Shown here piece by piece: positions 6,148 to 9,597 of a stretch of 10,544 nt of DNA (within the stretch, counting starts at the first letter, position 1; each line of letters opens with the position of its first letter). The position numbers and the translations under genes were made by a program. Origin of the DNA: an archaeon (GTDB lineage: Archaea > Asgardarchaeota > Thorarchaeia > Thorarchaeales > Thorarchaeaceae). Below the pieces are notes generated by a model. That model was not told the DNA's origin. It searched no databases and saw only the letters and a list, made by a program, of their open reading frames with translations. The stretch covers positions 1 through 10,544 of the forward strand of contig JAJRZD010000075.1 of NCBI GenBank assembly GCA_024275415.1, written 5' to 3'.

Positions 6148-6901
6148 TTCATCCAATATTGAACACCCATTTGGTGCTCGTACAATTGTTGCAGACTGGG
6201 TTGCAAACAGCTGCGCTACACGTACTCAAACATGGACATCCCTTAGATGGACATTCGAAGTAAATTATAGGGCTTTATAGACTCGACCACTCCCACAGGA
6301 GTATGAGGTTATACATGGCTTACAAACGGTTTCGCAGAGTCTACCCAGTGCCGTTATCTGGGAGTACAACACTATGGTGTCAAAGATTGCACAACTAAAA
6401 ATGAACGGTATAATTCAGAATTAGCCATGAACCTTGTAGTTCGGTCAATTCTTGACAATCGAAATCTTAATGTCACACGAATCCTTTGGTTATGCCGGAG
6501 TGAACACATCGTATGACAAGATATCGTCGAGTGTTCTTGGGGCTCGTAATCATACTTCTAGTTGTTGCGAGCTTAGCCTATGTGCTCATGCCAACAGAGC
6601 GAGTTCTTGTCGAAAAGGATTTCTCTGCAATAGGAACCTACCCCGCGTACTACTATGCCAACTTCACAGTTGACAAATCAGACAGCAATGCAGCATTGAA
6701 AATACGTTTTAATGTGAACTCCTCTGAATCGCTAGATTTCATTTTCATTTGGGCATTGTATAATGCAACTGTTGAGCAATTCGAGCAGTCATTCAACATC
6801 ACACTGGCTGAGGAACTTGCGAACCAAGGTGATTGGGATAAGGAAGACTGGATCTGGTATGGCTGGATGTACAGTAGCGTTTCTTTTCTCTACGCATACT
6901 A

Positions 6902-7033
6902 TTGAACTTGTCCAAACTTTTCACCTCCGCAAGGAGAAGCCTGGATTGAGCCCTGGTATGCGGACAGGGCTCGGTCAGCATAGGTCATGACAGCATTGGT
7001 GTGACGGTCCACAGCTTGTCCGCAGGACCTGCA
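6902..7033 (-). pseudogene. tnpB: 3' stub of TnpB (second Zn-finger CxxC plus degenerate RuvC-III)
   Basis: CRSCG-QAV-DRHTNAVMTYADRAL has the exact spacing of the TnpB motif CxxCG-x3-DRDxNAAxNI. H, V and T are each one base change from D, A and N. An in-frame TAG lies immediately upstream. Confidence 0.7.
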
Positions 7034-7040
7034 CTATTGT
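6902..7040 (-). ncRNA. Candidate omegaRNA/reRNA scaffold of the IS607-TnpB element
   Basis: Overlaps the tnpB 3' end. Contains a perfect 8-bp stem GAGCCCTG-9nt-CAGGGCTC (6948-6972) and a CTCC-TTGC-GGAG hairpin (6925-6936), and ends in TTCAA at 6906-6902. The 5' limit is unknown. Confidence 0.55.
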
Positions 7041-7061
7041 TCCGCTACGGGGTATATATGC

Positions 7062-7139
7062 CCCTTTGCGTTCCCACCTCCTCAAGGTGGAAGGTGACAC
7101 CCCAAGACGTTTTGCCATAATTCCGGTCCTGACTACCAT
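7062..7139 (-). pseudogene. tnpA: 5' stub of an IS607-type serine-recombinase transposase (MerR-like HTH)
   Basis: ATG 7139: MVVRTGIMAKRLGVSPSTLRRWERKG, continuing as HIYPVA after one extra G in a G-run. This matches the A-x-x-LGVS-x-x-TLRRW-x-x-x-G-x-I-x-P pattern of IS607 TnpA N-termini. The catalytic domain is absent. Confidence 0.78.
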
Positions 7140-7571
7140 GCCTGATGACAAGATTGGTAAGTTTTTTACTTTCTGCTAGTACGGTTGACACCCAATCTCT
7201 CCCGGCAACTATGTTTTCGTCTTCTGGATTGATCAAGAAGACCCGCCCTTCGATTGGTCTGGCACTCTTCACATCAGATTGAGGACTAGCTTGCTGCCAG
7301 CAGCTGAATAATACTGACCTGCAACCTGGAAGTCTTTTCCACGACTGTCGATTTACATCGGTGTTTTTTAGACGATTTTCGTTTGAACACTATTCCCTGC
7401 ACGCCTAATCTGACAATCTCAGGAGTTTCTTTGAACTCAGCCTAACGTAAACTAATTCTCTTTTTACATACACAAGAATCAAAAGACTGCATGAGCGTTA
7501 TTCCTATTTGACTTGGGAAGTACTACCTTTTTAGTGCTGTTTAGACCAATTCGCTAAGGGCTGGGAACAAC

Positions 7572-8288
7572 ATGACATCAATTGATGAAATGACTGCGGA
7601 TGAGCTGATTAGGAAGGTAAAAGGTCTAAGAAACTTAGGACGTTTTCGTACTTCGGCAAAAGGCCCTACTGGCGTCGGTGATACGCTAGAGGGATTACTA
7701 GGATTGCCCCGAACGAATATTTCACTCCCAGATTGGGGATCAATCGAAGTAAAAGCACACCGAAAAGGCAGTGGGAGCAAAATAAGTCTCATCTCACTGA
7801 AACCCATAATCCTAGGCGATGGAGAAAGAAGTACCATAATCAAGGAATATGGTCAAGAAAGCAGTACCTCTGGCAGAATTAATCTCTATATCACAATCTC
7901 TGCGAAATGTGAAAATAAGAATGGTTGGAAACTGAACATTGATTCTAAAAAGGGATACATCCTAATTCAATGCCGTGGGAAATCAATTGCTGAAACAAAT
8001 CTCAATGAACTTTATGAGAAACTAGAGCAAAAGGCAAAGAACCTTATCATTGTATATGCCAAGTCATTCAAGGAATCAAATACGGAATTCTTCGAATATC
8101 GTGCCGCTACGTTGTATAAGGATCTTCGCGCTGAGAGAATTCCAAGACTATTGACGATGGGAACAATGGTCTTTGAATGGCGTATGCATCTGAAATCAAA
8201 TGGCACTGTTCGTGATCATGGTCCTGCTTATAGGATATCTCCGAAAGACATGCACAGGCTATATGCCCATGTGGAGAAGATGTTCTAA
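7572..8288 (+). CDS. MvaI/BcnI-family type II restriction endonuclease
   Basis: GPTGVGDTLEGLLGL, NISLPD...EVK (PD-(D/E)xK), and RDHG near the C-terminus; convergent with an m4C methyltransferase. Confidence 0.85.
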   Translation: MTSIDEMTADELIRKVKGLRNLGRFRTSAKGPTGVGDTLEGLLGLPRTNISLPDWGSIEVKAHRKGSGSKISLISLKPIILGDGERSTIIKEYGQESSTSGRINLYITISAKCENKNGWKLNIDSKKGYILIQCRGKSIAETNLNELYEKLEQKAKNLIIVYAKSFKESNTEFFEYRAATLYKDLRAERIPRLLTMGTMVFEWRMHLKSNGTVRDHGPAYRISPKDMHRLYAHVEKMF

Positions 8289-8289
8289 G

Positions 8290-9597
8290 TCATCTCTTCT
8301 GTAAGATGATGATGTGTTCGTTGTGCATCGTGTCAGCCGAATATCCCTCTACATTTTCAGGTGCATTCTGCCAAGGCATACGCTTGGTAGGGATATCTCT
8401 CCCGATTGTCGTAATGTGTGCAAAGCCGATGTTTTGACCTAGCTCGACAATGATAGCATCCGTGGGTATTCTTATTCTGCTCATCAATCGATTGCCCACA
8501 ACGATACATGCATGGCTTCCGTTTTTTAAAGCATGATACATTGCAAGTAGCGATCCATTAAGGTCAAGAAAGAAGTTGAAGAACTGTTTGGCTCTTTTTT
8601 CACTATTCTTTAGTATTTTCTGGTAAGTTGTATCTAGTAAGGTGCTATTCAGAATCTCGGAGGAGTAATTTGAGTGGCTTCGACCGCCAAGACCAATCCT
8701 ATCCACCGATTTGAGCTTATCTTCTTCGATACCTGCCCATATGCCCGGATATCTGGAGAATTGACCATATGCAACTGTCGTTGAATGATCCCCATATGGA
8801 GGCGATGTAACCACAACATCGATTGAATTTTCTTCCAAAGCAAGCTCCCTGTTATCAATTGTATATATCTCTGCTGAGGGGTTTTCTCCCTCAAGTTTTC
8901 GAACGAATGACTCCATGAGACGTATGCATCGTTCTACGTGATTCCCAAAGGTTACTTGTACGTCTGGCTTGAAATCTTCCACTTTTGCTTGTCCCATATG
9001 TACGATTTTGAATTCGTTCTTCTTTAGATTCGAAACATCTCTTGCAGTGGATGCCAAACATAGACGCAGAAAGTCCCTGATATCCCCATCTGAAACCGCA
9101 AATACCTCATCTTTGATTTCTGCTAGATCGAGAATCACATCCTCTTTGAAATAGTATGTGGGGTTGTGCATGACCGGAATCTCTGCATCCTTTGTAGCCT
9201 TTTGCAATCGTTCGCGTGTTGCTTTCAGTACGTTATCACTGACTTTTCGTAGTTTCGCGATGTCCAATGGGGTCGTTTTCACCTTTGATAGGAAGGTGGC
9301 GAAAGGGTTGAGGTCCGTTCCTATAGAATTCCTCCCCATAATCATCGCCTCCACAAGAGTCGAGCCTGACCCGCAAAACGGATCCCATACCGGTTCCTTG
9401 CCCCTTGCATAGATTGTTACGAGTCTTCTTGCTATCTGAGGAATCATTCTTGCTGGATATGGGTGCAGGCCATGTGTCATGTATTTTGTGTCCACTCCAT
9501 TGAATGTCCAATCATCCAGTTGCTCTTTGTCGTGGGTGGTCAAGTAGTCATGCAGATTTCCTTGTTTCGCATCCATTGTTACCAGCATTCTTTCCAA
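8290..9597 (-). CDS. N4-cytosine DNA methyltransferase, alpha class, M.MvaI-like
   Basis: THGLHPYPARMIPQI, motif I DPFCGSGSTL placed before motif IV TSPPY, followed by GDHSTTVAYGQFSR. Start is TTG 9597, ATG 9588 or ATG 9576. The stop is 1 nt from the REase stop. Confidence 0.9.
   Translation of the reverse strand: MERMLVTMDAKQGNLHDYLTTHDKEQLDDWTFNGVDTKYMTHGLHPYPARMIPQIARRLVTIYARGKEPVWDPFCGSGSTLVEAMIMGRNSIGTDLNPFATFLSKVKTTPLDIAKLRKVSDNVLKATRERLQKATKDAEIPVMHNPTYYFKEDVILDLAEIKDEVFAVSDGDIRDFLRLCLASTARDVSNLKKNEFKIVHMGQAKVEDFKPDVQVTFGNHVERCIRLMESFVRKLEGENPSAEIYTIDNRELALEENSIDVVVTSPPYGDHSTTVAYGQFSRYPGIWAGIEEDKLKSVDRIGLGGRSHSNYSSEILNSTLLDTTYQKILKNSEKRAKQFFNFFLDLNGSLLAMYHALKNGSHACIVVGNRLMSRIRIPTDAIIVELGQNIGFAHITTIGRDIPTKRMPWQNAPENVEGYSADTMHNEHIIILQKR

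What the first reader, a model, noticed from the sequence alone, without database searches (positions are those of the whole stretch)
6882..7040. Orphan omegaRNA whose guide would target the empty allele of the host gene
Seen: a perfect 8-bp stem (6948-6972), a second hairpin (6925-6936, extendable by G-U), and a TTCAA end followed by the flank 5'-TAGTATGCGTAGAGAAAAGA (6901-6882). The reconstructed empty site reads ...GATTGGG|TAGTATGCG.... Established: TnpB guide RNAs come from the element's right end with the 3' flank as guide, the TAM equals the left-flank target motif, and TTCAA is the ISDra2 right cleavage site. From memory, and needing verification, a TGGG-type TAM was reported for an IS607-associated TnpB. 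Inference: this RNA-only cassette could program a TnpB encoded elsewhere to cut excised or uninterrupted alleles and so lock in the knockout. The guide is also antisense to the host mRNA. Point decay in the tnpB stub means the scaffold may be damaged.
Basis: partly seen in the sequence, partly recalled or inferred. Interest (0 to 1): 0.75.

Follow-up and report, generated by a model that had tools for sequence, protein, structure and literature searches.

The report
Guide-RNA end of a mini-transposon

Summary
The two hairpins are real and conserved. The TTCAA boundary and the proposed guide are wrong.

- **What the element is.** It is one of at least 7 copies of an IS607-derived MITE in this Thorarchaeota MAG. 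It splits a small membrane-protein gene.
- **Where it ends.** All copies, and five independent full-length relatives, share 10 more bases after TTCAA. The right end is therefore at 6892. This is a pseudoknot next to the guide, as in solved TnpB omegaRNAs.
- **Support for the fold.** On 18 sequences, 11 of 26 pairs show compensatory changes, and the G-U pairs fit only the element's sense strand.
- **Corrected guide and empty site.** The guide would be 6891-6872. The in-frame empty site is ...TTGGGT|AGAGAAAAG..., from a 298-nt excision with GT at both junctions.
- **The parent nuclease.** It is a 526-708 aa protein with no significant Pfam hit of its own (best E 0.005, below cut-off). It has a TnpB/Cas12f fold and a D-E-H RuvC site.
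- **What is missing here.** Neither this nuclease nor its serine recombinase is in this assembly. Intact nuclease genes occur in other Thorarchaeota.

Verdict: an omegaRNA-type module on a non-autonomous element, a known kind of thing, and probably inactive here.

The parts
6892..7189 (-). Non-autonomous IS607-family element (MITE), 298 bp by the frame-restoring excision. The conserved core runs from ACCGT (7185) to GCGT (6892).
   Evidence: 7 near-full copies at 78-94% identity, plus fragments, in the same genome. The right boundary is shared with 5 independent full-length relatives. The left boundary comes from G003 vs L042 vs L045 vs the MITEs.
7034..7189 (-). Left-end part. It holds an A-rich box (about 7171-7160) that could be the tnpA promoter, and the first ~28 codons of a MerR-HTH serine-recombinase gene (ATG at 7116).
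   Evidence: Pfam MerR hit, E = 4.9e-9, on the 6975-7151 ORF. It is homologous to the start of the G003 tnpA, which has a Resolvase domain (E = 6.7e-16). The promoter reading is inference only.
6899..7033 (-). Stub of the last 44 codons plus the stop (TAG, 6901-6899) of a long TnpB-like gene. It contains the second CxxC of the zinc finger and the RuvC-III motif DRHTNAV.
   Evidence: tblastn with the G007 526-aa protein gives 74% identity over 42 aa at 7033-6908. Alignment.
6948..6972 (-). Stem 1: 8 bp (GAGCCCTG/CAGGGCTC) with a 9-nt loop.
   Evidence: 92.7% of cells are paired across 18 sequences, and 3 pairs show compensatory changes.
6893..6899 (-). 3' arm of the pseudoknot (GUAUGCG). It pairs with loop bases 6962-6956 (CGCAUAC), and one base (6892) separates it from the element boundary.
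   Evidence: Inverted repeat I3. 87.3% of cells are paired. Compensatory C-G to U-A changes occur at two different pairs, in the P0004 locus and in the G013:C18 relic. The pseudoknot was not part of model R1, so the alignment is not fitted to it.
6911..6945 (-). Stem 3 (6945-6940 with 6916-6911) enclosing hairpin 2 (6937-6933 with 6928-6924, loop UUGC).
   Evidence: Hairpin 2 keeps its pairing with different stems and loops in relatives: CUCC/GGAG, CCC/GGG, UUC/GAA, GUCCU/AGGAC, CCAU/AUGG. The G-U and U-G pairs work only on this strand.
6872..6891 (-). Host flank that would act as the guide if the scaffold is read through: AGAGAAAAGAAACGCTACTG.
   Evidence: Its position directly 3' of the shared right-end boundary. 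It is the only site in the genome matching its first 16 nt with at most 1 mismatch.
7190..7195 (-). Left flank TTGGGT, a candidate TAM or target motif. Its GT (7191-7190) matches the GT at the right end (6893-6892).
   Evidence: GGGT or TGGT lies 4-5 nt upstream of ACCGT in 3 of 10 independent insertions: this one, L042 and L045. This is weak evidence.
6513..6891 (+). 5' part of the interrupted host gene, a small N-terminally anchored protein.
   Evidence: Homologues of 168-200 aa in related genomes.
7190..7311 (+). 3' part of the interrupted host gene. Its conserved PISPGNYVFVFWI motif is in frame after the 298-nt excision.
   Evidence: Alignment with L021, L022, L023 and L025.

Best explanation
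The finding lies in the right-end module of a 298-bp non-autonomous IS607-family element (MITE) inserted, antisense, in a small membrane-protein gene.

The MITE arose by an internal deletion. That deletion joined the left end, with the first ~28 codons of a MerR-HTH serine recombinase, to the last 44 codons of a long TnpB-like gene plus the right end.

The retained right end encodes an omegaRNA-type scaffold on the element's sense strand:
- Stem 1.
- A pseudoknot between the loop of stem 1 and the seven bases 6899-6893, with one further base (6892) before the boundary.
- Stem 3, which encloses hairpin 2.

If the scaffold were transcribed through the boundary and bound by its cognate nuclease, the guide would be 6891-6872. 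It would match only the empty site ...TTGGGT|AGAGAAAAG.... This is the ordinary transposon-retention mechanism of TnpB.

Shown: the element's boundaries, its multi-copy nature, the conserved and covarying structure, and the TnpB/Cas12 fold of the parent protein.

Inferred: transcription, nuclease binding, the TAM and cleavage.

Neither the cognate nuclease gene nor the cognate recombinase gene is in this assembly, and several sister copies have broken helices. The module is therefore most likely a well-preserved relic that is inactive now.
For: - **Multi-copy element with defined ends.**
- **Origin of the two stubs.** The tnpA stub hits MerR. The related full-length tnpA has a Resolvase domain. 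The tnpB stub matches the C-terminus of 526-708 aa proteins.
- **The parent proteins belong to the TnpB/Cas12 superfamily.** A profile search finds 179 relatives, several of them over the PF07282 cut-off. The AF2 model (pLDDT 77) hits Cas12f, ISFba1 IS607 TnpB, ISDra2 TnpB and Fanzor2 at probability 1.00.
- **Structure.** 90.7% of cells are paired, against 24-51% for slid controls. 11 of 26 pairs have double changes, against 4.0 +/- 1.6 in shuffles (reached in 1 of 500). The pseudoknot has two compensatory pairs although it was not in the model.
- **Strand.** The wobble pairs G87-U113 and U91-G104 would be mismatches on the other strand.
- **Precedent.** A pseudoknot formed by the bases next to the guide is described for the ISDra2 omegaRNA and for Cas12 guides (PMC10097598) and for an IS607 TnpB reRNA (PMC11061315).
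- **Excision.** The 298-nt excision restores the conserved host frame.
- **No cognate genes here.** No cognate nuclease or recombinase gene is found in the genome.
Against: - No transcript evidence could be sought: no sequencing run was listed.
- No Rfam family matches, and the single-sequence fold is not unusually stable.
- In full-length elements most of the scaffold overlaps the coding region, so part of the conservation is due to the protein.
- The last 10 nt could also be conserved as a recombinase site.
- The sequences are related, so the shuffle counts are not probabilities. Alignment A5 was also fitted to the nested helices.
- No left-flank motif is shared by all insertions, so the TAM is not established.
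- The left junction is uncertain by about 4 nt. The conserved core is 294 nt, but the host frame demands 298.
- The MAG is 92.9% complete, and insertion sequences often fail to assemble, so absence of the nuclease is not proven.
Confidence: 0.68

Rival explanations
1. The element ends at TTCAA (6902), the guide is 6901-6882, and the empty site is ...GATTGGG|TAGTATGCG... with TGGG directly as the TAM.
For: Excising 289 nt is also in frame. TGGG is present at 7194-7191. TGGG is a documented IS607 TnpB TAM.
Against: TAGTATGCGT follows the same position in the other MITE copies and in 5 independent full-length elements with unrelated flanks. TTCAA is missing from 4 of those. 6899-6893 pair with the loop of stem 1, with compensatory changes. 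The TTCAA cleavage-site rule belongs to Y1-transposase IS200/IS605 elements, not to serine-recombinase elements.
Confidence: 0.03
2. The conserved right end is only a recombinase recognition site plus the remains of a coding sequence. The helices are DNA-level or accidental, and no guide RNA is made by this family.
For: A minimal IS607 element needs about 60 bp of right end for excision, so a MITE must keep its ends in any case. There is no Rfam hit and no RNA data. The loop of stem 1 codes for the conserved ALSAYQG.
Against: Hairpin 2 keeps its pairing while both its sequence and the peptide it encodes change freely. The compensatory changes include the non-coding 3' arm of the pseudoknot. 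The wobble pairs are strand-specific. The parent protein has the fold of RNA-guided nucleases. Serine recombinases are not known to need hairpins in their sites (general knowledge).
Confidence: 0.2
3. The module is active now. A cognate long TnpB, encoded on unassembled DNA or in other cells of the population, uses this transcript to cut empty alleles, so the gene knockout is actively maintained.
For: All four helices are intact in this copy. Both halves of the host gene are still open. The flank carries GGGT, as in two other insertions. The guide-equivalent flank is unique in the genome. A congeneric MAG (G007) carries an intact cognate gene with 82% nucleotide identity at the right end. TnpB works with an omegaRNA supplied in trans from a mini-element in the Cbo system.
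Against: No fragment of the cognate gene beyond the MITE stubs is in the assembly. Nor is the cognate recombinase there that would create the empty sites to be cut. Sister copies C8, C24, C29 and C89 have lost pairs, as expected without selection. Copies differ by 6-22%, so the burst is old.
Confidence: 0.1

Closest known systems
IS607-family IStron/TnpB system of Clostridium botulinum (CboTnpA_S, CboTnpB, omegaRNA; 10.1101/2023.11.20.567912)
   Same: Both have a serine recombinase with an N-terminal HTH followed by tnpB, and an omegaRNA scaffold that ends at the right-end boundary. The same dinucleotide sits at both junctions: GG there, apparently GT here. The flank motif is G-rich (TGGG there, TGGGT here) and resembles the right end but differs at one base (TCGG there, TGCGT here). 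Mini-elements without genes are mobilised, and guide, in trans.
   Different: There is no group I intron here. The nuclease is 526-708 aa with a D-E-H RuvC site, not about 400 aa with D-E-D. The scaffold lies almost wholly inside the 3' coding region. The host is archaeal (Thorarchaeota). The TAM and activity are untested.
ISDra2 TnpB omegaRNA (PMC10097598)
   Same: The guide RNA is taken from the 3' end of tnpB and the right end. A pseudoknot is formed by the bases just 5' of the guide with an upstream segment. The guide is the flank.
   Different: ISDra2 is an IS200/IS605 element moved by a Y1 transposase with a TTCAA-type cleavage site. That rule does not apply here. The sequences and helices are unrelated.
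PATEs/MITEs of IS200/IS605 and IStrons (gene-less elements keeping the transposon ends)
   Same: They are short, multi-copy and without intact genes. Both ends are kept, including the guide-RNA region.
   Different: This one derives from a serine-recombinase (IS607-type) element. It has no terminal palindromes. It keeps recognisable stubs of both genes, fused in frame in two copies.
RuvC-III-rearranged TnpB clades (RIIIr, Asp to His; PMC10691335)
   Same: The parent protein has His at the RuvC-III Asp position (HxNAA), nearly invariant in its clade. Some such branches are reported as archaeal and as linked to serine recombinases.
   Different: The largest described clade (RIIIr-4) lacks the zinc finger, whereas this family keeps it. 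I could not map this family onto a named branch.

Membership tests
IS607 family (non-autonomous derivative) | Serine recombinase TnpA with an N-terminal MerR-like HTH | tested here: met
   The stub in the window hits MerR at E = 4.9e-9. The homologous full-length tnpA in G003 has a Resolvase domain at E = 6.7e-16.
IS607 family (non-autonomous derivative) | tnpB downstream of tnpA on the same strand, within shared ends | tested here: met
   G003 and L045 show left end, tnpA (decayed), long tnpB-like gene and right end. The MITE keeps stubs of both genes in that order.
IS607 family (non-autonomous derivative) | No terminal inverted repeats and no target-site duplication; the same core dinucleotide at both junctions | tested here: inconclusive
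   No TIR or TSD was seen. GT is at both junctions here and in L042 and L045, but not in the other 7 insertions.
MITE | Short, multi-copy, both ends kept, no intact transposase | tested here: met
   7 copies of about 290 bp plus fragments. No full-length parent is in the genome.
TnpB/Cas12 superfamily (parent protein) | RuvC-containing TnpB fold with a zinc finger (TNB domain) | tested here: met
   Foldseek gives probability 1.00 to Cas12f, ISFba1 TnpB, ISDra2 TnpB and Fanzor2. Relatives found with the family profile pass the PF07282 cut-off. The family itself is below the Pfam cut-off.
TnpB/Cas12 superfamily (parent protein) | Canonical D-E-D catalytic triad | tested here: not met
   D307 and E410 are conserved, but the RuvC-III position is His494 (HxNAA) across the clade. 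This is a rearranged site of a kind described as probably active.
omegaRNA (TnpB guide RNA) | Encoded at the 3' end of tnpB, with the scaffold ending at the right-end boundary | tested here: met
   The structured region spans 6972-6893 and the boundary is at 6892.
omegaRNA (TnpB guide RNA) | Pseudoknot formed by the bases adjacent to the guide | tested here: met
   6962-6956 pairs with 6899-6893 over 7 bp, with two compensatory pairs.
omegaRNA (TnpB guide RNA) | Transcribed, bound by the nuclease, and directing cleavage next to a TAM | not testable with these tools
   No sequencing run was listed.
Rfam RNA families (all 4227 covariance models of release 15) | Match to a curated covariance model | tested here: not met
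   No match at E <= 1 anywhere in the window.

The most novel reading that the evidence does not exclude
The MITE family is a dispersed set of guide-only cassettes for a long, D-E-H (RuvC-III His) TnpB of Thorarchaeota that is carried by only some genomes of the population. When that nuclease arrives, each MITE is protected from loss. Gene knockouts such as this one are then enforced in trans, across cells, by a nuclease clade whose activity has never been tested.
Probability: 0.1. Interest if true: 0.55.

Novelty: new member of a known kind. Interest (0 to 1): 0.3.

Why it matters
The finding gives a clean, boundary-resolved example of an omegaRNA-type scaffold, with a covarying guide-adjacent pseudoknot, for a rare archaeal clade of long TnpB-like proteins. 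This clade has no significant Pfam hit of its own and carries His in place of the third RuvC carboxylate. It also shows that IS607-type elements in Asgard archaea leave gene-less copies that keep the guide module.

For anyone testing this nuclease clade, the scaffold limits (about 6972-6892), the guide start and a candidate G-rich TAM are now explicit. For genome annotation, it explains a split gene and about ten unannotated repeats in this MAG. It does not reveal a new mechanism.

Tried and rejected
- **Rfam scan** of the whole window at E <= 1 found nothing.
- **tRNA scan** found nothing.
- **Public sequencing runs** for 6300-7600: none was listed, and no RNA holder was listed.
- **Closer homologues of the host protein**, wanted to fix the empty site: the word-indexed search returned only the window's own protein. 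Family homologues at 21-40% identity are length-variable at the junction and cannot separate the 289-nt from the 298-nt excision.
- **Bacterial promoter and terminator scan** is not informative for an archaeon.
- **Other MITE copies as a source of empty sites:** they are mostly intergenic.
- **Other TnpB genes in the genome as a trans partner** (C57 411 aa, C120 360 aa, C82 563 aa): they show no similarity to the stub or to the MITE ends, so this was rejected.
- **My early worry that the intact relatives are nuclease-dead** (N or G in place of the first D of DRD) was rejected. The catalytic position is two residues before NAA, and it is His throughout the clade.
- **First off-target scan:** the first guide scan (up to 4 mismatches) was too loose and its output was cut. 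It was replaced.

Full report
**Setting.** The window is contig C55 of a 3.5-Mb, 127-contig MAG that is 92.9% complete. Its close relatives are labelled Candidatus Thorarchaeota. The finding (6882-7040) lies inside a short insertion. That insertion interrupts a small + strand gene (6513-6905) whose conserved C-terminal part resumes at about 7190.

**The insertion is a MITE derived from an IS607-type element.**
- Read on the minus strand, it starts with an A-rich box and the first ~28 codons of a MerR-type HTH protein (Pfam MerR, E = 4.9e-9).
- At about 7034/7033 it jumps to the last 44 codons of a large gene and then ends.
- The same ~290-bp unit occurs at least 7 times in the genome, on C55, C37, C5, C119, C8, C89 and C29, at 78-94% identity. 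There are also fragments on C24, C23, C43, C78, C21 and C118/C91.
- Relatives carry the full-length parent. In G003 and L045 the homologous left end is followed by a serine-recombinase gene (Resolvase domain, E = 6.7e-16). That gene is decayed in L045, and may also be in G003, where a 0.76-kb gap follows it. A 707/708-aa gene follows, whose last codons match the stub.
- In L042 the recombinase gene is deleted. In L041 no recombinase gene lies upstream and no left end was found, so there the large gene appears to stand alone.

- Seven MITE copies share TAGTATGCGT (or a near variant) after TTCAA.
- Five independent full-length loci with unrelated flanks (G007, G003, P0004/L041, P0003/L042, P0005/L044), plus L045, end homology exactly after ...TGCGT.
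- Four of these lack TTCAA altogether.
- The element therefore ends at 6892. ISDra2 uses a Y1 transposase, whereas this family uses a serine recombinase.

**The left boundary and the empty site.**
- Homology among G003, L042, L045 and the MITEs begins at ACCGT (7185).
- Removing the 294-nt core does not restore the host frame, and 295-nt variants create an in-frame stop (my reading).
- Removing 298 nt (6892-7189) gives ...SVSFLY-PISPGNYVFVFWI..., in frame with the homologues.
- It also leaves GT at both junctions (7191-7190 and 6893-6892). This is the signature expected of a serine recombinase that crosses over at a core dinucleotide, as shown for GG in the C. botulinum element.
- The empty site would read ...TTGGGT|AGAGAAAAG....
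- GGGT or TGGT sits at the same offset, 4-5 nt before ACCGT, in L042 and L045, but not in the other seven insertions. A G-rich target or TAM is therefore suggested, not shown.
- The right end (TGCGT) differs from the flank motif (TGGGT) by one base. This parallels TCGG versus TGGG in the Cbo system, where that difference prevents self-cleavage. The parallel is my inference.

**The right end is a structured RNA of the omegaRNA type.**
- A third helix (6945-6940/6916-6911) encloses the hairpin.
- The loop of the 8-bp stem (6962-6956, CGCAUAC) is complementary to 6899-6893 (GUAUGCG). These are the seven bases that end one base (6892) short of the boundary.
- On 12 sequences, 93.6% of cells pair and 5 pairs carry double changes.
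- A covariance model built from the nested helices found more diverged copies in G013 and on C78 and C118.
- On the resulting 18 sequences, 90.7% of cells pair, against 24-51% when partners are slid. 11 of 26 pairs have changes on both sides, against 4.0 +/- 1.6 in shuffles (reached in 1 of 500).
- The pseudoknot was not in the model, yet it shows C-G to U-A at one pair in the P0004 locus and at another pair in the G013:C18 relic.
- Hairpin 2 keeps its pairing while its stem, its loop and the peptide it encodes all change.
- The frequent G-U and U-G pairs would be mismatches on the opposite strand, so the fold belongs to the sense transcript.
- A pseudoknot made by the bases next to the guide is the conserved core of the ISDra2 omegaRNA and of Cas12 guide RNAs (PMC10097598). 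Pseudoknots are also essential in an IS607 TnpB reRNA (PMC11061315).
- Caveats: the sequences are related, much of the scaffold is also coding, the single-sequence fold energy is ordinary (z = -1.55), and Rfam has no match.

**The parent nuclease.**
- The 526-708 aa proteins have no significant Pfam hit. The best is PF07282 at E = 0.005, below the cut-off. They are rare: 5 clusters in the word-indexed search.
- A profile search of 1.84 billion representatives finds 179 relatives. Several of these pass the PF07282 (Cas12f1-like TNB) cut-off.
- An AlphaFold2 model (mean pLDDT 77) matches Cas12f, ISFba1 IS607 TnpB, ISDra2 TnpB and Fanzor2 at probability 1.00.
- The clade keeps the RuvC-I Asp and RuvC-II Glu. 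It has a nearly invariant His at the RuvC-III Asp position (HxNAA). Altae-Tran et al. describe this rearrangement for some TnpB branches and judge it probably still active (PMC10691335).

**Is the module usable here?**
- tblastn with the G007 and G003 proteins finds only the C-terminal stubs in this genome. The cognate recombinase is also absent.
- The genome's other TnpB genes are unrelated to the stub and the ends. These are a canonical IS607 on C57 that splits galT, and others on C120 and C82.
- Copies C8, C24, C29 and C89 have lost pairs, which fits neutral decay.
- The C55 copy keeps every helix. Its flank is unique in the genome. A congeneric MAG carries an intact cognate gene. Activity in trans therefore cannot be excluded, and TnpB does accept an omegaRNA from a mini-element in trans in the Cbo system.

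**Verdict.**
- This is the omegaRNA-bearing right end of a non-autonomous IS607-type element, which is a known kind of thing. The corrected guide is 6891-6872, and the corrected empty site is ...TTGGGT|AGAGAAAAG....
- It is most likely a relic here.
- The scan's own notes on this window (e1-5445439, e1-5445441) describe the same element with the 289-nt boundaries, which I revise.

Noticed in passing
G000 contig C57, about 14320-16125 (L015:1363-3164): An intact canonical IS607 element: TnpA of 192 aa with a Resolvase domain, and TnpB of 411 aa with HTH_OrfB, OrfB_IS605 and TNB domains. It appears to split a galactose-1-phosphate uridylyltransferase-like gene. That gene identification rests on sequence motifs only and no domain search was run on the two halves. 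The left flank ends in GAGGG, one of the TAMs reported for IS607 TnpBs.
   Followed up: partly
G000 C37:6852-7130 and C8:12988-13257 (MITE copies): In two of the seven MITE copies the HTH stub of tnpA is fused in frame to the C-terminal stub of the TnpB-like gene. This gives open frames of 93 and 90 codons. In the window's copy a 5-nt deletion near 7030 breaks this frame.
   Followed up: no
G000 C119:5028-5060 (MITE copy): This copy has a 12-nt tandem duplication (ACAAGTTCAATA, twice) just before the terminal TAGTATGCGT.
   Followed up: no
L051 (G013:C18:86076-86203): A diverged stand-alone relic of the same right end, with no large gene upstream. It keeps stem 1, stem 3, hairpin 2 and the pseudoknot through compensatory changes.
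   Followed up: partly
L040, L042, L045: The 707/708-aa forms of the TnpB-like protein carry an extension of about 180 aa with a low-complexity P/Q/T/N-rich start. Their tnpA is decayed (L045), possibly decayed (G003) or deleted (L042), while the large gene stays open.
   Followed up: no
window 7572-9597: A restriction-modification pair lies 0.4 kb from the MITE. It consists of an MvaI/BcnI-family endonuclease (7572-8288, +) and a DNA methyltransferase (8290-9597, -).
   Followed up: no
G000 C118:46784-46908 and C91:52-176: The same decayed right-end relic of a related element sits at the end of one contig and the start of another. These two contigs probably join there.
   Followed up: no
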